Shown here piece by piece: positions 7,978-64,000 of a DNA stretch of 64,000 bases. This DNA comes from a virus (lineage: Duplodnaviria; Caudoviricetes): IMG/VR virus record IMGVR_UViG_3300037484_000435, positions 384,001 through 448,000 of that record; one strand, 5' to 3'. The stretch's first letter is position 1; every line of letters begins with the position of its first letter. Under the pieces are notes generated by a model. That model was not told the origin of the DNA and made no database searches. It saw nothing but the letters and a program-made list of their open reading frames with translations. The position numbers and the translations under genes are program-made.

Positions 7978-10040
7978 TGACATTCCTAGAATACTTAGAT
8001 GATTTGGTCGATAAAGCACAAGCTAATGTAAATGATTATGAACACTTTCATGACAAACGTTTGGCTGATATACGTAATATGGACGCTACAGATTCTTTTT
8101 TGTATGGAGTTGCTTCTGGAAAATTAGAGGCAACCAAGAATTTGAGGGATTTGGTGGAAGAATTGATGATTAGATTTGAGGGACCATGAACAGTGGTCTG
8201 GCGGGAAAAATAGATTTTTGTATGTCGTGTAAACGTTTAGTGGATTACGCCCTAACAACAATACACAGACATCAACTATATATACAAATAAATGAGGAGG
8301 TTGAGGCACCTAATAATAGAGTCGCAATTCCTGTGTGTGAAAACTGTCAAGCAATGTTGAGGGAACACCTACCGGGGATAGATGGCTTTATAGTCGAAAT
8401 TCCACAATAATAAGGAGTCTTCCCATGGAACAAATGAATTTTTCTATTTCCACATTGAACGGTGTTATTGCCCAGAAGTTGAAATCGTTGGCTTCTGTTA
8501 CTTCGGCAAAAGATATTAAAGAGATTAACAGTTTTTTAAGAGAATCTCAAAGATTAAGGAAGACTCTTTATTCCATAGGTGATTTCACCGAGGAAGAGGA
8601 ATACGAAAGTAATGAAGGGTCCTATGTAGAAGAGACCGAAGACCTAGACTATATGGGGATTTTAATACAGATATGCGAATATGTCAAAAATTTTCATGCC
8701 GTAGTTGATTTTAAAAAGGTAAAGGAAACCAAGTCTCAGTGGCTTTTGGATGAATCCGCGGAGCTCTTATCCGAGCTACGTAAGATGTTCGGTAGCCGAA
8801 TACCAGTAATTCCAGGTTCCATTGAGGGAAGGCAAGAAGATGTTGTTTGTGCAAATGACGAAGGCGATGAAACAAAAGAAAAACAACCAAAGAAACGCAA
8901 ATAATATTGTAAACGGAGGTACACATAATGTGCTGTGAAGACGAAAAAAAGGTATCAGAGGACGTGAGAGTGATTCACGATGAATTAGAAAAAGCAGATA
9001 CATGGATTTTTGCTGCTCAGGAAATTCTCCGACCAGAAAATGAGGAGTTTGACCCCGACCCTAAAGATATAGGTAATATCGAAGTGGCTCTGACCTTTGC
9101 TATTGCTAACATAAAAGAGGCAATAACCCTGTGCCAGATTTACCGAGGCAGTAGAGAAGAACCAGTTAAAGAAGACCACAAAGAAAATGTCTATGAGACT
9201 TTAGGAGGTTTTTTGGAGCCTAAATTGCCTCCTTTCAAACAGAAAATAATTGATAAATTTACTAAAGTAAATACTGATACCGGGACAATATACTACCCTA
9301 CAGACGCCGAAGGGAAGCCCGTTGATTTTAGCTTTAGTGAGGTGAGACTTCGGGAGGCTAAGCAAGCACTTTCCGATCTGGAAAATAAAATGGAATTTTT
9401 AAAAGCCAATAGAAATATTGAGCACATTAAATTGACACCAGAAGAACTTAAACTTTATAAGGACCGATAAATGGAGCAGCTATTAATGATTGACAGATGT
9501 AAATTCTGTGCCTCTCCCATTTATTGGGATGATGAGCAATCTCGCAGACGCTACACCTGTTCATGCTCAGAAAAGAACTCCAATTGTTGTTCTGACGGGG
9601 TATGTGAAGGGACATGCTTTAGCGAAGACGAAGATGGTGGAGACGTAGGTTGTTAAAAAAAGTTATAAATATCGATAAGGCGGAGACGCATAGCTCCACC
9701 TTTAATTCTTTCAAATGTCAAAAATGTGGGGGATTTTTTAAGCCATTTAATCACTACTGCGAAGATTGTGGAACAGAAAGACCCTATACCTATTCTAATA
9801 AACTAACTCTTAGTCCATATAAAGGAATACATAATGAATCATAACGACCGAGTAATGAGATTATCTAAAGGAATAGACCAAGTATACGCAAATTTGTATA
9901 TGTGGCCACACTTAACTAGGTCCCAGCAAGACAAATTGGAAGCTCTTTACAATGATTTAACTTTCCAGTTTGTTAGAGCAAAGCGTTTAAAGCGTGAAGA
10001 GATAGAAAAGGAATTCAGCAAGGCCCGCGAAGCTCATTAG
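7977..10040 (+). other. run of coupled small hypothetical ORFs (7977-8189, 8186-8410, 8425-8904, 8928-9470, 9471-9656, 9650-9844, 9834-10040), several with CxxC pairs
   Basis: Abutting or overlapping starts and stops with SD sites. Confidence 0.7.
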
Positions 10041-10100
10041 GATTGTAGCATCGGTATGGTAAATCGAAGGTAGGCGGTTCGAATCCGCCCACGGGCTCCA
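10023..10100 (+). tRNA. degenerate tRNA-Thr(GGT) with encoded CCA
   Basis: Acceptor GCCCGCG/CACGGGC (1 mismatch), anticodon arm TCGGT-ATGGTAA-ATCGA, T arm GGCGG-TTCGAAT-CCGCC, 3' TCCA; A at positions 8 and 32 is non-canonical. Confidence 0.7.
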
Positions 10101-48842: not shown

Positions 48843-49432
48843 GTGTGCATAGCCATGGCCGACGACTTTTACGCAAAACTAGTTGAACAAAAAAATGAAC
48901 TCATCAAACATAGAAGAGAGCTGGAGATTTTACGGGAAGAAAAAGACGCCCAACTAAAACACGATCTCCGAGAAGTCGATAGTAAGATTAGAGATTGTGT
49001 AGAACGGATAGAAGAAGCTCAGCTAATTTATCACCAAGAACTAAAACATAAAGAACCCATAGCCGCGGGATATTATTGGGGACGAAATAAATGGCGTAAA
49101 AATCCTGAGGATTACGATATGATTATCTTGGTAACAAAACCTAATCGTAATGGTGTGCAAGAATGGTATATGATGTCCCGAGAGTTGATTGGGTGGAATG
49201 AACGAAAGGACTACGAATATACATTGGGGGAATTCATAGGGGAAGAAAGGTGAGACGCGAGACCGTAGGAGAGGCTTATGTCCGTGTCCGCCGTGTTTAC
49301 GACCGACTTAGCTGTATGATTGAACAAGACGATGGACATAACCCTGAAAGAACCCGAAGATTAAAAGCTGCCTTAGAAAGAATTGACGGAGCCCTAGATG
49401 GTATAGAATCATATTGGGAATGTTATGACTAA
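48843..49432 (+). other. coiled-coil ORF 48843-49253 and small ORF 49250-49432
   Basis: Coupled ORFs. Confidence 0.65.
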
Positions 49433-49803
49433 TGCCAGCAAAAAAGTATTACAGACAAAGTATAGGGAAGGGTTTGTGTTCTATTTGCGGAAAGCCCGCA
49501 CCATATGGAACTAAGTGTGGGGATTGCCAAGAACGACACAATGCCTACAAAAGAGCGAGACGACAACAGATAAAAATAAGAGCTGTAGAATATAAAGGTG
49601 GAAAATGTGAAAAATGTGGCCGAATATTCCACCCTGATGTTTATGACTTTCACCACCGAGACCCTAAAACGAAAGAGAATATAATTACACAAGTGATGGA
49701 TCGTGGATGGCCACAGACGAAAAGAGAAATAGACATGTGTGCTCTCCTATGTGCAAACTGCCATAGGATAGAGCATATAGAAATGAGAGAATCACATCCT
49801 TAG
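49432..49803 (+). CDS. Zn-finger HNH endonuclease-like protein
   Basis: CSICG...CGDC; YKGGKCEKCG...YDFHH.DP..K...C.LLCANCHR..H. Confidence 0.85.
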   Translation: MPAKKYYRQSIGKGLCSICGKPAPYGTKCGDCQERHNAYKRARRQQIKIRAVEYKGGKCEKCGRIFHPDVYDFHHRDPKTKENIITQVMDRGWPQTKREIDMCALLCANCHRIEHIEMRESHP

Positions 49804-49872
49804 GTATCCTATCGGGCCGAACATGAAGAGAGGGTGGACCCCCTCCCCTAAGGCATTTTGGGAATTCAAAAG

Positions 49873-49906
49873 AGTATAGGGCCACCCCCTCGGTCCTATA
49901 CTTTCC
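49873..49906 (+). terminator. terminator ending the plus-strand run
   Basis: AGTATAGGGCC-loop-GGTCCTATACT followed by a pyrimidine tract. Confidence 0.65.
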
Positions 49907-50009
49907 TTCCTATTTATTAATTTATCCCTTCTTATATAATATTTTATCATTTCTTTTATACATTCCCCCACTTTATTACGTTCAGAACCGTAAATAAAAA
50001 GCCTTTTGT

Positions 50010-50630
50010 TTGTGGATAAAGAAAGCCTTTGGGACTTTCTTTATTTCCTGTCACGTAGAGCAAGAGTGAGTATGACTCTTGCTCCAGTGTTTAGTCTTGT
50101 TCACGATCTACCCCACAGGAGAGGGGTTCCCTCTGCGTCCTCCTTCGAGGTTAACCACATCCCGCGTTTGAGTTACCTCTCTCGCTTTCAATGGCTACGC
50201 TTTGGCATTGAGTCAACATTACCTCCAATAGGACTCCAATCCTACCAGAGGTAATACCAACTCAAGGCAGAGATGGTGGCAAACCACCTCTGCGTTTTTG
50301 GTCTTGAGTCCCATAGACATGAGACGCCGACCTCCCTTACGCTGCCAACGTAAGGCTTTTCTGTCCCCTCTAGCATTGGCTTTGACCTGCCGTTGCTAAA
50401 GGGTTAGTCCCACGTATCTGAGTTGTCACCCCAGAGTTGCGGACAAGAAAGACCTAGCCCGAAAGCTAGTCCACCGTTCAGTGGAACAAATATCTCCAAC
50501 GTCAGGGGAATCCCCAACTGGCTCACTGCTTTTGACCAAAGGCCTACTACCCACAATGGGCAGCGGTGTCCAGTCTACTAACAGATTGCCAGAAGGTTCA
50601 GAGCCCTTCAGTTAGAGAGAGATTTGTTTC
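50010..50630 (-). ncRNA. large structured non-coding RNA candidate (about 600 nt), class unassigned
   Basis: More than ten stems, with repeated G-U pairs on the minus strand only; UUCG and GUAA tetraloops; no credible ORF; promoter-like motif upstream and end hairpin. Confidence 0.65.
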
Positions 50631-50631
50631 T

Positions 50632-50666
50632 TTCTCTATTATTACTATTAATATATTATACGCGCG
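50632..50666 (-). promoter_or_regulatory. class B promoter-like motif
   Basis: Minus strand CGCGCG...TATATT-N9-AATAGAGAA. Confidence 0.6.
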
Positions 50667-50723
50667 AGGAATAAAAAACCTTTCCGATGTATAAGGCTTC
50701 TTATGTATTCGCGCGGGGAGTAA

Positions 50724-50765
50724 AAGAGCGTTAAAAGGTTTTCACCTCCTTTCTTTAACGCTCTT
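50724..50765 (-). repeat. 12-bp hairpin displaying an orphan SD
   Basis: AAGAGCGTTAAA-GAAAGGAGGTGAAAACCT-TTTAACGCTCTT. Confidence 0.7.
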
Positions 50766-50774
50766 ATACATATG

Positions 50775-50951
50775 CTAGTAGTTGTATTTCTCTCTCAGGT
50801 CATCGAACATCCCAGCGTATGGGTCATCCGTTTTCCTGAACAGATCATCGTAAGCCTTCTTGTCTTTGGCTTCTCTCTCCAGTTTGTCAATCCTACCAGA
50901 ATTCCAAACAACACCAGCAGCCGCCAACAGTGTCAATGTAACTGGGTCCAT
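50775..50951 (-). CDS. 58-aa protein with hydrophobic N-terminus
   Basis: Not in track; SD GAGGTG; MDPVTLTLLAAAGVVWNSGRIDKLERE... Confidence 0.7.
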   Translation of the reverse strand: MDPVTLTLLAAAGVVWNSGRIDKLEREAKDKKAYDDLFRKTDDPYAGMFDDLREKYNY

Positions 50952-51084
50952 AACACACCTCTCGTGTGGAATATGCGTATTACGTATTTTATAGAGGTGT
51001 CTCCCTCTACTCTTACTTAAATAACTATGACGCGCGGGGTTAGCGTAAACACGAGATGTACAGTCTCATGTTATACGCTATCCA

Positions 51085-51358
51085 TTAACTGATGTCCTTG
51101 AGGAATCTATGCAAGCCCTTCCTCATGTCTTCCCCAAGATGCCTCATATCTCGGAGAAACTTTTCATCTGCTGTTTCGGGCTCAGGTTCGGTTGCCCGTT
51201 TGATTTCGGTAACCTTATCCTCAACCTTCCTGACCACAGCTTTAATCTCGCCCCGCACAAAACGCGCGGCTTGATTGAACTGCTCAGCTTTAGACTCCCC
51301 CGCATTACTACGGCGGGCAAGTCCTTATAAGCCCATCTAGTCTTTCCAAAAACGACAT
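51085..51358 (-). pseudogene. frameshifted small gene
   Basis: SD GGGAG plus MSFLERLDGLI; one extra base near 51325 separates it from an open frame to TAA at 51085 (total 274 nt = 3n+1). Confidence 0.55.
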
Positions 51359-51371
51359 TGCTATTCTCCCC

Positions 51372-51578
51372 TTACCCGATTTGAACTCGGGGGATCTGGA
51401 TATTGTCGATAGGCAAACCAAGTTGCTTACACTCGGACATGAGTTTCAGCAACTCTTGTTTATCTAGGGTTAGCTCTTGGGCGAGCCTGTTTATAACCAT
51501 GACCTTCTTCAAGTAGCTCTCAGTCATCTTGTTAAGTTTCTGGAGCTTTCCCCTTTTTGTTATGGCTATTCCAAACAT
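51372..51578 (-). CDS. small coiled-coil protein
   Basis: SD GGAGG before ATG at 51578. Confidence 0.6.
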   Translation of the reverse strand: MFGIAITKRGKLQKLNKMTESYLKKVMVINRLAQELTLDKQELLKLMSECKQLGLPIDNIQIPRVQIG

Positions 51579-51658
51579 GACACCCTCCTTCTGGGTATTG
51601 CGTTCTTTACATATTAACATTTTATATACCACACGTATACGTTCTAAATACACGCGGG

Positions 51659-51705
51659 TATAAGAGAGACGTTAATTAATCGCCTCCTTTCTTGTCTCTC
51701 TTATA
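51659..51705 (-). repeat. 12-bp hairpin displaying an orphan SD
   Basis: TATAAGAGAGAC-AAGAAAGGAGGCGATTAATTAAC-GTCTCTCTTATA. Confidence 0.7.
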
Positions 51706-51711
51706 GGTAAA

Positions 51712-51918
51712 CTACTTGGTCTTTTCATTTACCTGCTTCTTCAGTTCCTTTGCTTTCTTGTCGACCCAGTCGGACGTTCGCTTGACGTCCTTGTTGTCGT
51801 CCTTTATCTGGGCCCATCTCGTCTCGACCTTGTTGGCCCAATCAACCAAGGCCCCTGCATGGGCGTTTACCGAGATGAAACAAAACAACACGGCCAGCAT
51901 AACGACTACTCTTTTCAT
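51712..51918 (-). CDS. small secreted protein
   Basis: Signal peptide ending AHA. Confidence 0.7.
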   Translation of the reverse strand: MKRVVVMLAVLFCFISVNAHAGALVDWANKVETRWAQIKDDNKDVKRTSDWVDKKAKELKKQVNEKTK

Positions 51919-51930
51919 TTCCCTCTCCTT

Positions 51931-52116
51931 TTATACCCAACGTGCATGACGCACATCAGGCGGAAGATCTAGAGGAGAACCCAAGAGAGGTTCCCTATCC
52001 AGAGTTATTACTTCAACAGGCCTGCCATACAGCATTGCTGCGATGCTGGCCTTCTCTTCGGACCCTGTTACGGCGAGGGGCTTCTCCTCACCGTGGATAG
52101 CATAGAGTGTATACAT
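51931..52116 (-). CDS. small hypothetical protein
   Basis: ATG at 52116 after GGGGTG. Confidence 0.55.
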   Translation of the reverse strand: MYTLYAIHGEEKPLAVTGSEEKASIAAMLYGRPVEVITLDREPLLGSPLDLPPDVRHARWV

Positions 52117-52179
52117 AACACACCCCTTTATCAAAACAAGGTTACGGTAGCCTTTCACTACAACTTGGAGAATACTATG

Positions 52180-52215
52180 TTCTCTATTATTACATAAATA
52201 TATATACGCACGTGC
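52180..52215 (-). promoter_or_regulatory. class B promoter-like motif
   Basis: GTGCG...TATATT-N8-AATAGAGAA. Confidence 0.6.
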
Positions 52216-52224
52216 GTATAGAAG

Positions 52225-52273
52225 TACCCTTCAAGGGTTAGGGGGAAAGAAAAGAATGGTACAAGAAAAGAAA
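52225..52273. repeat. imperfect direct repeat, copy 1 (copy 2 at 56046-56090)
   Basis: TACCCTTCAAGGGTTAGGGGGAAAGAAAAGAATGGTACAAGAAAAGAAA. Confidence 0.75.
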
Positions 52274-53402
52274 TATGGCTTTATACACGCGTGGGCGGGG
52301 CTATGTTTAAAAAAGTTAGTCACTTTTTCCATAGAAGAAGTTCTCAGTGTTGTATGTAGGGTAATCTGTACAAAGCTAACGCTATTAATCTGCCTGTAAC
52401 AAGACAAACTAATAGTGTATGGGCACAAGGACGTGCCCGATAGGTACAATTGGAAGTGCGAAAGGGGTTGGATAACCAGTGTCTTAATGCTTTATTATAG
52501 TGAACGTAAAGACACACAACATATTCACTTTTATTTCTCTTGCCGCATCTTATTTTATTCTCTCTTCGACGGCTCCAACAATTTAGGAACGGAATACTAG
52601 GAAAATAAAACTAGAAGAGATACCTTTTATTATTACAGGGAGGCGTTACACGTTCACTCACACACATAATTAAATAGAAAAGCATCTATTATTTTTATCA
52701 GGGTAGTTAAATACGAGCGGTAACGAGCAACAAGATAAGAGAAAAGGCCAAAAAGAGAAAATAAAGACGAAAAAACTTAAAAAGGCTTAAATAGAGGGTT
52801 ACGAAAATTGAAAAACCGAACAAAGTGAATACAAAATCAATAAAAGAGGGAGATGGAGGAAATAAAACACAAATAATTGAAAATAAAGTGGAATTAGGGC
52901 AGCAAAATGGGAGCAAAGAGGTCCGAGAGGGGGAGGGCGCGCATCTTATATAAAAAACAGGTGGGGGATAGGATGGGAAAAGAAAACCCTTAATTTATTA
53001 TTATGTATGTACCTATATGTTTATTGTTTTTCTGTTTATCTCCCTATCGATATGCGTATGTATAATCACTACCTTTTCCATTAGTAAGTGGTAAGTAAAA
53101 TAAAAAAGCTTTTGTTTAGCTAATTATCTGTTTCGTTCCTTGTACGTGTGGGTATCAATTATGCAGTATAATCTTTAGTTTCTTTTTCCTGTTATATCCA
53201 ACAGTTGGGTATCTTGTTTTAATTGCTTATCGGGTACCTATCGGAAAAGCCTCTCTAATCAATTCTAGTCCCTTCTTATGTTCAAGTAGGTGTAGAATTG
53301 TCTTAAAGGTTTGCATCGTTCTATACCGCTTATATTAATTCTGAGGGCATATATCTATGCATATCACGGAGAACAGAAAAACCCTAAATAGAGTTAATCT
53401 GT

Positions 53403-53621
53403 CTATTCCACCATCCATCTCCTTTCTTCCCACATACGAGCAACTGCTTCCCAGTCACCTCGCATTATAGCTTTGGCCATGGGCAACCGAAGCTCTTGAT
53501 AGATGTAAGCCTCATAAGCTGCGTATCCCTTAAAGGCTTCCATCCTCTTCATTTTTCTTTTAGCACATTCTAGTTTCTCTTCTAGTGTGCCATACCGATT
53601 ACACTGTGTGCAATCGTGCAT
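53403..53621 (-). CDS. small protein with N-terminal CxxC
   Basis: SD GAAAGGAGG. Confidence 0.7.
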   Translation of the reverse strand: MHDCTQCNRYGTLEEKLECAKRKMKRMEAFKGYAAYEAYIYQELRLPMAKAIMRGDWEAVARMWEERRWMVE

Positions 53622-53745
53622 ACGGGTCCTCCTTTCTCTCTACCTTAACATACGTGCACGTATGTTATTATTCTTTTACTCTATAATTATAAATGCGTAT
53701 GTGCGGGGACCAAAAGAACCTTAAATTATAGGTAGTCCTTTTGGT

Positions 53746-54201
53746 TTAGTAATTGTTCTGGTAATAATTGAGCAAAGTTATTAGGTGTTGGTCTGTAGTA
53801 CTTCTGTTGACCATCACCTGTTTCATGATTTGTTCTCCGTCAAACCATTGGGGGATTTCTCCCTTATGTGTAAACCCAAGTCTAGCAAGTTGTTTTGCCA
53901 AGTTCTCAGGTACACACACTACGAAAGGAGTATCACTAGCATATGCCTCTATTAACAGGGCCACTCCTTCTTTCCTATTCTTTGGGGCAAAGTGACTAAC
54001 CACGAATACCCCTTCAATCCACTGCCCTACCAGACAAGAGTCCATCTGATAGGGGCGATATACTATGCCACAGCCCCGCCCCAAGTGGCTAGCGAGGTCA
54101 CAGCAATAAGAAGACCCTCTCGATATGGCCTTCTCGTACCAGTCCGCTATGGAGCTGGCTTCTTCTTCTGTCTCAACAACAAAGAATCTTGTATTGTCCA
54201 T
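53746..54201 (-). CDS. hypothetical protein, possibly GNAT-like fold
   Basis: VVSHFAP...G..LL...VP..LA..L.RLGF pattern; weak. Confidence 0.4.
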   Translation of the reverse strand: MDNTRFFVVETEEEASSIADWYEKAISRGSSYCCDLASHLGRGCGIVYRPYQMDSCLVGQWIEGVFVVSHFAPKNRKEGVALLIEAYASDTPFVVCVPENLAKQLARLGFTHKGEIPQWFDGEQIMKQVMVNRSTTDQHLITLLNYYQNNY

Positions 54202-54238
54202 AACGGACCCCCTTTATATCCTACATGTGCGCGAGGGT

Positions 54239-54287
54239 GAAAAGAACCTTTCTGGAATCCGAATTAACGGTCCCCAAGGTTCTTTTC
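54239..54287 (-). terminator. repeated AAAAGAACCTT hairpin terminator
   Basis: GAAAAGAACCTT...AAGGTTCTTTTC; related copies at about 53709-53745 and 55394-55442. Confidence 0.65.
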
Positions 54288-54303
54288 CAAATTGTGTTGG
54301 TCT

Positions 54304-54771
54304 CTAGACGTGCATTGTGCAATCGATGAAGTTCTCTCCCTCAATTGCCTGTCTCGCCATACGTTCTCGTGCGATAAGTCTTTGACGAGCGATCTGGTTC
54401 TTTCTTTGTTCTTCCGCAAGCAACTCGGCCTCATAAAGCTTTTTTGCCCGAAGTTCTTGTTGCCGAGCAACTTCCCTTTCTTCATTGACCATTCGACGCC
54501 TCTCGGCTTTGATTGCTCGGGCGTCTCTTATTTCGTCCACGCGATCCGCGATCTTCTCGTTAAGGTCGATGGCCTTGGTTACGGCCGAGTCCTTTACAAC
54601 CTTAAGCCCGTCAACAGCCTTTTCCGCCACGTATTGCACTGGAGCAACTGCGGCAAGGTCAACTATCCCAGCAGCGACCTTGACAGTCGACCCAGTGACT
54701 TTGGCTGAAGTTTCAAGGACATCCGCTACCAGATTCGCAATAAAGCTCATCGGTTTGTAGAATCTTCTCAT
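54304..54771 (-). CDS. amphipathic helix plus coiled-coil protein
   Basis: SD GGAG; A/V-rich N-terminal half, E/R-rich C-terminal half. Confidence 0.7.
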   Translation of the reverse strand: MRRFYKPMSFIANLVADVLETSAKVTGSTVKVAAGIVDLAAVAPVQYVAEKAVDGLKVVKDSAVTKAIDLNEKIADRVDEIRDARAIKAERRRMVNEEREVARQQELRAKKLYEAELLAEEQRKNQIARQRLIARERMARQAIEGENFIDCTMHV

Positions 54772-54843
54772 GACATTACTCCTTCTAAAACGAACCAATC
54801 GAGATACCAGCAAAACTGGCTAGACGCACATACGCCTATTTAA

Positions 54844-54875
54844 TTCTCTATTATCATATCAATATATTATTACGC
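54844..54875 (-). promoter_or_regulatory. class B promoter-like motif
   Basis: GCG...TATATT-N8-AATAGAGAA. Confidence 0.6.
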
Positions 54876-63393: not shown

Positions 63394-63795
63394 AACGTTG
63401 CTTGGGTTTTACCCTTTCTATTGTTTTCCTGAATGATTTAGAATACTCGGGTTCAGGTTTCATATAACTGTAGAAGAAGGACCACTTTCCTAGTGACAGC
63501 CCAAAATCCTTAGTTCGACGAAAACCCACCATCTTTTCCACCTTTTTCCTTTCTTTTGATTCATTTTTCTTTATTAACCCTATCTAACCCTTAGATCCTT
63601 ATTGAGGTAAGTGGGTACTTATCAAAAGGCTCTAATGAATTATTCGTGCAGGCGGACAGGGGAATAGATTCATTGTCTTATTATTAATATATTAGACGCG
63701 TGTGCCCTCCCACGTGAGACTGCTATCCCTTAGGACTGAGTATCACGTGGAAGTACACGAGACGGGAATCCTAACCAACAGGAGGATCTAGTCCC

Positions 63796-64000
63796 TCACT
63801 TCTTGTTGGCGTCTGTCCTCTTCAGATACTCCTCTGCCCGCCTTAGGGTATCCGAGCTACTTCGCAGGGCGTCTTGTGCACACTTACCTGTGCATAAACT
63901 TTCCGCCCTGTACCTATCCATCAGTGGGTTTTGCCTGAGCAAGTCCTTGGTGCATTGATCTACACAAGGTTCGGCCCATATCACACTGGGCAGTAACGCA
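63796..64000 (-). CDS. Cys-containing secreted-type protein, 5' end outside the window
   Basis: Frame open to the window edge; CVDQC...CTGKC. Confidence 0.55.
   Translation of the reverse strand, partial: ALLPSVIWAEPCVDQCTKDLLRQNPLMDRYRAESLCTGKCAQDALRSSSDTLRRAEEYLKRTDANKK

What the first reader, a model, noticed from the sequence alone, without database searches (positions are those of the whole stretch)
50010..50630. Unassigned ~600-nt highly structured non-coding RNA with its own promoter-like motif
Seen: an ORF-free block at the junction of the two transcription arms is packed with stems that close only on the minus strand through G-U pairs. A 16-bp hairpin ATTACCTCTGGTAGGA/TCCTATTGGAGGTAAT has 3 G-U (50218-50255). 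Others are CCCTTTAGCA/TGCTAGAGGG (50366-50403), CTAGCT-TTCG-GGCTAG (50454-50469), CCTTACGT/GCGTAAGG (50335-50355), GACTCAAG/CTTGAGTT enclosing GCAGAG-GTGG (50259-50310), GAG-GTAA-CTC, and a perfect 10-bp stem (50058-50084). It begins just after a class B promoter-like motif (50632-50666) and ends at a hairpin (about 50015-50044). Knowledge: phages carry large ornate RNAs such as GOLLD and ROOL, but I find no hallmark of tmRNA, RNase P, or group I/II introns. Inference: this is a standalone, possibly new large phage ncRNA or ribozyme.
Basis: partly seen in the sequence, partly recalled or inferred. Interest (0 to 1): 0.88.

Follow-up and report, generated by a model that had tools for sequence, protein, structure and literature searches.

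The report
Orphan structured RNA gene in huge phage
A 545-kb phage carries a self-contained, promoter-to-terminator gene for a roughly 630-base, unusually tightly folded RNA that matches no known RNA family and sits in a swappable accessory cassette; its function is unproven.

Summary
Window 50000-50640 (minus strand) has no credible ORF. It folds far better than shuffled sequence (z -9.6 to -11.4 on the minus strand, -6.2 on the plus strand). It follows a promoter-like cassette shared with three neighbouring small genes and ends in a hairpin plus U-tract. Rfam 15, ARAGORN and BLAST give no assignment.

New context:
- The window lies in a 545-kb virus record. The RNA closes a 50-kb leftward arm rich in RNA-repair genes.
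- A distant relative (G002, terminase 61% identical) has, at the collinear position, a 371-nt ORF-free unit. It has the same promoter type, a unique conserved downstream block and the same strand-biased structure (z -7.5 versus -3.0). Its body does not align with ours.
- A contig 99.85% identical up to window 49888 diverges there and lacks the RNA. The RNA therefore belongs to a roughly 2.4-kb exchangeable accessory cassette.
- Short contigs from seven other studies carry pieces of the RNA at about 95-97% identity.

No full-length homologues were found, so covariation is untested and expression is unknown. My reading is a genuine accessory ncRNA gene of a new family, probably a protein-binding decoy or scaffold. 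The ribozyme or ornate-cage reading is not supported. This stretch was also noted once more by the scan (e1-5381382), on the same DNA.

The parts
50000..50640 (-). Body of the predicted ncRNA, about 630 nt. The 5' end is inferred a few bases after ATAATAGAG. The 3' end is inferred at the terminal hairpin and U-tract.
   Evidence: No credible ORF. MFE -265 kcal/mol, z -9.6 and -11.4. No Rfam hit.
50634..50677 (-). Promoter-like cassette: GC block CCTCGCGCG (50677-50669), an AT-rich spacer, and ATAATAGAG (50642-50634).
   Evidence: The same cassette lies upstream of small genes at 52190, 53688 and 54854 and nowhere else in 545 kb. It aligns with the cassette in front of the G002 unit.
50446..50635 (-). 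Closed 5' domain: six nested long-range helices plus five hairpins.
   Evidence: 200-nt fold of -79.6 kcal/mol, with MFE equal to centroid, z -4.8 from 200 shuffles. Helix probabilities are 0.81-0.98.
50443..50469 (-). UUCG-loop hairpin followed by a U-rich tract and GTCCGCAAC. This is terminator-like and resembles the arm's terminator-tail plus GC-block cassette. It could end a short form of about 195 nt.
   Evidence: Flagged by the terminator scan. The resemblance to the 53708 cassette was read directly from the sequence.
50366..50403 (-). 10-bp plus 3-bp hairpin.
   Evidence: Pair probability 0.99.
50335..50355 (-). 9-bp hairpin.
   Evidence: Pair probability 0.95.
50259..50310 (-). Helix GACUCAAG/CUUGAGUU enclosing the 11-bp hairpin 50267-50293.
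   Evidence: It is favoured once the X2 variant at 50211-50214 removes the competing pairing.
50218..50255 (-). 16-18-bp hairpin with three G-U pairs.
50152..50197 (-). Branched element containing the GUAA (GNRA) tetraloop hairpin.
50056..50086 (-). 12-bp hairpin with a possible counterpart in G002 (L028:8790-8829).
   Evidence: In a hand-made register all 11 pairs are canonical in both sequences: 8 identical, 1 changed on one side, 2 changed on both sides. Infernal does not find the match significant.
49993..50043 (-). Terminal 11-bp hairpin (50017-50043) and a duplicated AAAGGCUUU-U-rich tail (49993-50006). This is the inferred 3' end.
49955..49999 (-). Conserved block just downstream of the RNA. 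It looks like another promoter cassette.
   Evidence: The 25-nt core occurs once in this genome and once in G002, in each case directly after the structured unit.
49871..49904 (.). Bidirectional terminator between the HNH gene and the RNA unit. Position 49888, inside it, is a recombination breakpoint.
   Evidence: Terminator scan. L053 is 99.85% identical up to 49888 and unrelated beyond it. An X2 contig also diverges at 49888.
49889..52292 (-). Exchangeable accessory cassette: the conserved block, the RNA and five small ORFs, each behind a terminator and/or GC-block spacer. In the near-identical contig L053 it is replaced by 2.76 kb of unrelated small genes.
49432..49803 (+). Convergent neighbour: a 123-aa HNH endonuclease, the last gene of the rightward arm.
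   Evidence: phrog_2255, E 4.9e-25.
50775..50951 (-). 58-aa ORF immediately upstream, ending in its own terminator hairpin (50724-50765).
   Evidence: No family hit.

Best explanation
This is a genuine, autonomous non-coding RNA gene of a family not yet described. It is carried as the last unit of an exchangeable accessory ('moron-type') cassette, at the convergent junction between two gene arms of a 545-kb phage.

What the sequence shows: a phage-specific promoter cassette (GC block plus ATAATAGAG), an ORF-free body of about 630 nt, and a terminal hairpin with a U-tract.

What is predicted and statistically supported: the transcript folds into a closed 190-nt multi-helix 5' domain, followed by about ten stable hairpins that include UUCG and GNRA tetraloops.

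What is inferred: the RNA acts in trans as a stable folded particle that binds protein, as a decoy or scaffold aimed at host or phage RNA-handling or defence proteins. I do not think it acts by catalysis or by antisense pairing. The reasons are these:
- The collinear unit in a distant relative keeps the structure but not the sequence.
- The unit is dispensable in a near-identical phage.
- It lies in a cassette-swapping island of the kind that usually holds host-interaction genes.

I put about 0.65 on 'real stand-alone structured ncRNA gene' and about 0.25 on the specific decoy/scaffold role.
For: - Structure: z -9.6 and -11.4 on the sense strand against -6.2 on the antisense strand. Both halves are structured on their own, z -4.8 and -10.1. 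There are 29 G-U pairs on the sense strand against 13 on the antisense.
- Non-coding: the longest open frame is 86 codons, on the other strand.
- Own promoter: the cassette is shared only with three neighbouring genes. A terminator-like 3' end is present.
- Collinear counterpart in G002: 371 nt, ORF-free, z -7.45 sense against -3.03 antisense. It has the same promoter cassette and a unique 25-nt downstream block, within a collinear 50-kb arm.
- Sequence conservation where present: short contigs of 151-206 nt from four of seven other studies tile 49996-50659 at about 95-97% identity. A structural-gene stretch 6-8 kb away was found only in the source sample.
- Accessory status: contig L053 is 99.85% identical over 5,889 nt up to window 49888, then carries unrelated genes and no RNA.
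Against: - No full-length homologue was found, so there is no covariation test.
- Of 12 listed natural variants at MFE-paired positions, 6 keep pairing and 6 break it, which is about the chance expectation.
- The G002 body does not align. The local alignment score was reached by 26 of 300 shuffles, and single-sequence covariance models of the 5' domain and the 3' tail give no significant hit.
- Many stems are long and perfect, like the arm's terminator hairpins. An internal copy of the terminator-tail motif lies at 50443-50469.
- There are no expression data.
- The run comparison is weakened by the index's detection threshold.
Confidence: 0.6

Rival explanations
1. It is a conserved 'ornate' RNA of the GOLLD/ROOL type, either self-assembling or catalytic. 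Function would then depend on a precise tertiary fold.
For: - It is about 630 nt, phage-borne, with its own promoter.
- It has a nested multi-helix 5' domain whose MFE equals its centroid.
- It contains UUCG and GNRA tetraloops.
- Pieces at 95-97% identity occur in seven other studies.
Against: - No Rfam family matches at E up to 10. The same scans found HEARO, tRNA and tmRNA in this genome or in G002, so they work on this material.
- The collinear G002 unit shares no alignable core.
- The RNA is absent from a 99.85%-identical phage.
- It is not next to a tRNA island; the nearest tRNA is 40 kb away.
Confidence: 0.15
2. It has no function of its own as an RNA. It would be a pile-up of terminator-type hairpins and decayed terminator/promoter cassettes at a convergent junction, acting at most as a transcriptional insulator.
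For: - It lies at the convergence of two arms.
- An internal copy of the terminator-tail plus GC-block motif lies at 50443-50469, and the tail is duplicated at the 3' end.
- Other gaps in this arm also score z -4 to -6 because of their hairpins.
- The body is not conserved in G002, and the unit is dispensable in L053.
Against: - A dedicated promoter cassette points straight into it.
- A proper bidirectional terminator already sits at 49871-49904.
- The 37 bp of nested long-range helices in the 5' domain are not terminator-like.
- Its z score is about twice that of any other gap, and its strand asymmetry is the largest seen.
- Pieces are 95-97% identical across distant habitats.
Confidence: 0.15
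3. It is the RNA component of a mobile element, for example a guide (omega-type) RNA or intron remnant linked to the adjacent HNH endonuclease.
For: - An HNH gene lies 200 nt away.
- The genome carries IscB-type HEARO RNAs and an RRXRR protein elsewhere.
- The unit moves as a cassette.
Against: - The HNH protein is a 123-aa phage type on the opposite strand. It stays in place in L053 while the RNA is gone.
- The HEARO model does not match here.
- There are no flanking exons, repeats or target duplication beyond the recurrent terminator tail.
- No intron models match.
Confidence: 0.05
4. It is protein-coding or dual-function, with small peptides or a recoded reading frame.
For: ORFs of 44-50 codons exist on the minus strand.
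Against: - None has a Shine-Dalgarno sequence at a usable distance (read from the sequence).
- Reassigning TGA or TAG does not lengthen the longest open frame of 86 codons, and the frames that lengthen when TAA is read through lie on the other strand. Neighbouring genes read normally in code 11 and several end in TAA or TAG.
- The 82-aa plus-strand frame shares no words with any protein in the 5.8-billion-cluster database, not even itself.
Confidence: 0.03

Closest known systems
ROOL and GOLLD RNAs (Rfam RF03087, RF01998), the large ornate phage and prophage RNAs that form RNA-only nanocages (PMC12286853)
   Same: A phage-encoded ncRNA of 600-800 nt, highly structured, a stand-alone gene, function unknown. 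GOLLD also has a poorly conserved half.
   Different: - No covariance-model match.
- Not next to a tRNA island.
- No conserved core shared with the collinear unit of a related phage.
- Many long perfect hairpins instead of pseudoknotted short helices.
- Dispensable in a near-identical phage.
Phage morons and accessory-island genes: autonomous promoter-gene-terminator units exchanged between related phages (established knowledge)
   Same: It has its own promoter and terminator. It sits in a cassette that a 99.85%-identical genome replaces with unrelated genes, with a breakpoint inside a terminator hairpin.
   Different: The cargo here is a large structured RNA, not a protein gene.
HEARO / IscB omega RNA (RF02033)
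   Same: A structured RNA near an HNH-type gene. The family is present twice in this same genome.
   Different: - The model does not match this locus.
- The neighbour is a small free-standing HNH on the opposite strand, not an IscB.
- The RNA is three times longer.
Bacterial Y RNAs with Rsr/Ro60 and RtcB (established knowledge)
   Same: The arm encodes RtcB, an Rnl ligase, a CCA-adding enzyme and MYG1 exonuclease. The genome encodes a TROVE/Ro protein. A protein-binding structured RNA would fit such a setting.
   Different: - The Ro gene is 366 kb away and has its own structured gaps beside it.
- The target is 3-6 times longer than Y RNAs.
- ARAGORN finds no tRNA gene in it.
Adenovirus VA RNA type viral decoy RNAs (established knowledge; an analogy for mechanism only)
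   Same: A virus-encoded, highly base-paired RNA with its own promoter, in which helical structure matters more than sequence.
   Different: It comes from a different domain of life. Nothing here tests binding to any sensor or nuclease.

Membership tests
ROOL (RF03087) / GOLLD (RF01998) / OLE (RF01071) | A match to the family covariance model. | tested here: not met
   No hit at gathering score over the window. No hit at E up to 10 over 49800-50800 with permissive filters.
ROOL / GOLLD | The usual location beside tRNA islands in phages and prophages (PMC12286853). | tested here: not met
   The only tRNA in the window is at 10023-10100, 40 kb away. The genome's tRNA arrays lie 80-110 kb away.
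HEARO / IscB omega RNA (RF02033) | A model match and a position directly upstream of an IscB (RRXRR-RuvC-HNH) ORF on the same strand. | tested here: not met
   No match here, while two copies score 127-129 bits elsewhere in the genome. The neighbour is a 123-aa HNH on the opposite strand.
tmRNA | A tRNA-like domain plus a tag reading frame (ARAGORN, RF00023). | tested here: not met
   ARAGORN finds none in the window and Rfam finds none. The Rfam model does detect a 521-nt tmRNA in G002.
RNase P RNA, group I and group II introns | A covariance-model match. For introns, also flanking exons of an interrupted gene. | tested here: not met
   No hit at E up to 10. The unit has a promoter upstream and a terminator downstream, and no split ORF.
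Phage moron / accessory cassette | An autonomous promoter and terminator, with presence or absence varying between otherwise near-identical genomes. | tested here: met
   Promoter cassette and terminal hairpin. L053 is 99.85% identical to 49888, then unrelated and without the RNA.
Structured functional RNA (generic) | Compensatory base changes among homologues. | tested here: inconclusive
   Only short near-identical read contigs and one non-alignable positional counterpart were available. Of the 12 listed variants at MFE-paired positions, 6 keep pairing and 6 break it. One hairpin shows two double changes, in a hand-made register that Infernal does not find significant.
Structured functional RNA (generic) | A discrete transcript. 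| not testable with these tools
   No RNA run is listed for this stretch.

The most novel reading that the evidence does not exclude
The unit is the founding member of a new class of large phage RNAs. These would be carried as mobile promoter-RNA-terminator cassettes in huge phages of wetlands, lakes, bogs and digesters. They would act either as a bacterial-virus counterpart of VA-type decoy RNAs, disabling a host RNA-sensing or RNA-cutting defence, or as a self-assembling or catalytic particle.
Probability: 0.2. Interest if true: 0.85.

Novelty: new variant of a known kind. Interest (0 to 1): 0.58.

Why it matters
Very few bacterial or phage RNAs longer than 500 nt are known, and each has opened new biology (RNA cages, guide RNAs).

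This candidate has clear gene boundaries and an unusually strong structure signal. It is widespread in the environment, and it has a natural presence/absence pair of near-identical phages. That pair makes its contribution to infection directly testable.

If it proves to be an RNA decoy in an accessory island, it would add a large structured RNA to the mostly protein-based counter-defence factors known in phages. If it proves to be hairpin debris, it is a useful warning that fold z-scores alone over-call RNAs at phage convergent junctions.

Tried and rejected
**Homologue searches that found nothing**
- blastn (distant mode) against 50,697 phage records and 72,556 plasmids.
- Exact and R/Y-degenerate patterns taken from the RNA, in viral contigs (searches gave only a chance hit; 42, 43, 64), metagenome contigs and genome contigs.
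- nhmmer and blastn within the genome, which found no paralogue.
- nhmmer against G002 and G004.
- Covariance models R1 (5' domain) and R2 (3' tail) against G000-G004.
- The 82-aa pseudo-ORF as a protein query.

**Neighbour-protein routes**
- The 424-aa protein has one 42% relative, on a 1.4-kb contig.
- The 136-aa protein has relatives at 64-69% whose gene tables continue with dense plus-strand genes and no 600-nt gap.
- The terminase gave no prophage in GTDB genomes.

**Sequencing runs**
- No RNA holder is listed for this stretch, so nothing can be said about expression.
- Parts of the stretch without cover in the laid runs are not evidence of anything.

**Readings considered and dropped**
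- A replication origin or pac site: no iterons, and the site is one of several strand-switch points.
- RNase P, on the strength of ACAGAA and GAAAGUCC look-alikes: they are in the wrong order and no model matches.
- A Y RNA: the Ro gene is elsewhere.

**Other**
- L053's replacement sequence is only ordinarily structured, z -4.2.
- mafft-qinsi was unavailable for a structural pairwise alignment.
- Complex prediction, structure prediction and fold search were not used, because there is no protein question here.

Full report
**Where the window lies.** The window is bases 384001-448000 of a single 545,322-bp virus record. Base skews divide the genome into alternating blocks. The finding sits exactly where a rightward block (385-434 kb) meets a leftward block (434-485 kb). 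The last rightward gene, 49432-49803, is a 123-aa HNH endonuclease (phrog_2255, E 4.9e-25). It is followed by a bidirectional terminator at 49871-49904.

**Checking the observation.**
- The block has no ORF with a plausible start. The longest stop-free frame is 86 codons, on the other strand, and reassigning TGA or TAG does not lengthen it.
- The 631-nt minus-strand sequence folds to -265 kcal/mol, against -200 for dinucleotide shuffles. That is z -9.6 and -11.4 with 24 shuffles.
- The plus strand gives -220 kcal/mol and z about -6.2.
- The sense fold uses 29 G-U pairs of 222. The antisense fold uses 13 of 209.
- Both halves are structured on their own. The first 200 nt form a closed domain of six nested long-range helices whose MFE equals the centroid (z -4.8). 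The remaining 431 nt score z -10.1.
- Scored the same way, 14 other large ORF-free stretches of this genome reach only +0.6 to -6.2, and its two bona fide HEARO RNAs about -2.

**Gene boundaries.** Upstream lies a GC block (CCTCGCGCG), an AT-rich spacer and ATAATAGAG. In the whole genome this combination occurs only on the minus strand at window 50642, 52190, 53688 and 54854. In the other three cases it sits 35-70 nt ahead of a ribosome-binding site and start codon.
- Here the cassette is followed by no start codon. It follows directly after the terminator hairpin of a 58-aa ORF.
- The 3' end is an 11-bp hairpin (50017-50043) with a duplicated U-rich tail.
- An internal UUCG hairpin plus U-tract at 50443-50469 looks like this arm's terminators. 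It could yield a short form of about 195 nt.

These boundaries are inferred. No expression data exist.

**Known families.** Rfam 15 gives nothing at gathering scores over the window. At E up to 10 it gives nothing meaningful over 49800-50800; the best is a Giardia U6 model at 21.6 bits against a threshold of 100. ARAGORN finds no tRNA or tmRNA in the block. The tools do work on this material. They find tRNAs and two HEARO RNAs elsewhere in the genome, and a 521-nt tmRNA in a relative. The genome holds no paralogue.

**Relatives by sequence.** Direct searches of phage, plasmid, viral-contig, metagenome and GTDB collections found no homologue.
- The 31-mer index lists seven runs from seven other studies (wetland, freshwater, bog, biogas) holding 7-21% of the RNA's words.
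- Laid on the stretch, contigs of 151-206 nt from four of these runs tile 49996-50659 at about 95-97% identity.
- A 2.4-kb structural-gene stretch 6-8 kb away was found only in the source sample. Given the index's detection threshold, this is suggestive but not proof that the RNA is more conserved or more mobile than its surroundings.
- The 14 listed variants do not discriminate. Of the 12 at MFE-paired positions, 6 keep pairing and 6 break it.
This favours that helix.

**A positional counterpart in G002.** The terminase (L008) has relatives at 50-61% identity in four viral contigs.
- The leftward arm is collinear with G002 165-189 kb.
- At the collinear end of that arm G002 has an ORF-free unit, L028:8505-8875. 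It is preceded by a clearly alignable promoter cassette. It is followed by a 25-nt core of a 45-nt block that occurs exactly once in each genome.
- That unit is 371 nt and folds with z -7.45 on the sense strand against -3.03 on the antisense strand. It has no Rfam match either.
- The bodies do not align. The local alignment score was reached by 26 of 300 shuffles, and single-sequence covariance models of our 5' domain and 3' tail give no significant hit.
- The only similarities are an excess of shared 7-mers (30 against 15.7 +/- 4.4) and one hairpin. In a hand-made register that hairpin keeps 11 pairs with two double substitutions. I regard this as suggestive only.

**A near-identical phage without the RNA.** The 90%-identity cluster of the HNH protein led to a 28-kb JGI contig, L053.
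- It is 99.85% identical to the window over 5,889 nt up to position 49888, inside the terminator hairpin. Beyond that it is unrelated for 2.76 kb, which holds small minus-strand genes.
- Similarity resumes near window 52293.
- nhmmer finds no trace of the RNA in L053. Its replacement sequence is only ordinarily structured (z -4.2).
- An X2 contig also diverges at 49888, into a third sequence.

The RNA therefore belongs to an exchangeable cassette of about 2.4 kb (49889-52292) and is dispensable to the phage backbone.

**Interpretation.** The promoter, the terminator, the strand-specific structure of exceptional strength, and the same arrangement at the collinear site of a distant relative together argue for a real RNA gene, not debris.
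- Three things argue against a ribozyme or a GOLLD/ROOL-type fold: the lack of a conserved core between the two lineages, the long perfect hairpins, and the presence/absence polymorphism.
- These features fit an accessory RNA whose helical structure is what matters. It would most plausibly be a protein-binding decoy or scaffold.
- The arm it closes is unusually rich in RNA-handling genes. These are RtcB, an Rnl-type ligase, a CCA-adding enzyme, MYG1 exonuclease, YqeY and two RNase-H-like proteins. No direct link to the RNA is shown.
- The main rival is that it is a stack of terminator-like hairpins with no role of its own.
- Covariation and expression are the missing tests.

**Novelty and score.** It is a new, unassigned family within a known kind of thing, large structured phage RNAs, in an unusual setting, a mobile accessory cassette. 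I score interest at 0.58. The feature is solid and the experiments are clear, but function and fold conservation are unproven, and the more exciting reading has been weakened.

Noticed in passing
L004:5974-7131(-), L004:1186-2280(-), L004:11832-13367(-), L004:10831-11832(-), L004:4178-4627(-), L003:8307-8906(-), L003:18291-18920(-): The leftward arm is an RNA-repair and RNA-processing module. It holds RtcB (E 1e-108), an Rnl-type RNA ligase, a CCA-adding/poly(A)-polymerase-HD enzyme, MYG1 exonuclease, YqeY and two RNase-H-like proteins. The main RtcB match begins at profile position 137, so the N-terminal part may diverge or the gene may be split.
   Followed up: partly
genome 67.3-68.0 kb (L051/L052); gaps at genome 64904-67096: A 538-aa TROVE (Ro60/Rsr) ORF has structured ORF-free gaps immediately upstream. 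This is a likely phage Ro-Y RNA locus.
   Followed up: partly
L028:8505-8875 (G002): A 371-nt ORF-free, strand-specifically structured unit (z -7.45 versus -3.03) lies at the collinear position in a 260-kb relative. It has no Rfam match.
   Followed up: yes
window 63394-64000; L003:595-1091, L003:2391-2996, L003:5068-5692, L003:6367-6967: Several further ORF-free, moderately structured gaps (minus-strand z -3.0 to -6.2) lie in the same arm, none with an Rfam hit. One of them (L003:6367-7384) sits beside a LAGLIDADG ORF (L003:7385-8197) and may be a group I intron.
   Followed up: partly
It gets no Rfam hit.
   Followed up: partly
L004:15408-15617(-), L005:2898-3107(+), L004:2976-3995(-): Two HEARO (IscB omega) RNAs and an RRXRR-domain protein are encoded by the phage.
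   Followed up: no
window 52250-53100: A pyrimidine-rich (on the minus strand), ORF-poor stretch of about 850 nt has reversed skew. A similar stretch follows the structured unit in G002 (L028:8925-9130).
   Followed up: no
window 49831-49888: 58 nt of the bidirectional terminator recur in run X2 and in L053, joined to different sequences at 49888. This looks like a recombination hot spot inside a hairpin.
   Followed up: partly
L029:15104-15624 (G002): The relative encodes an unusually long (521-nt) tmRNA. None was found in the 161 kb of the present genome that was scanned.
   Followed up: no
L003:13462-14025(-): A 187-aa protein carries a ribosomal L7/L12 C-terminal-like domain.
   Followed up: no
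L028:7030-8510 (G002) and window 50630-54860: The terminator plus GC-block plus AT-rich plus ATAG(A/T)G cassette is repeated before each small gene. It is conserved between phages whose terminases are only 61% identical. It is probably a phage-specific promoter class.
   Followed up: partly
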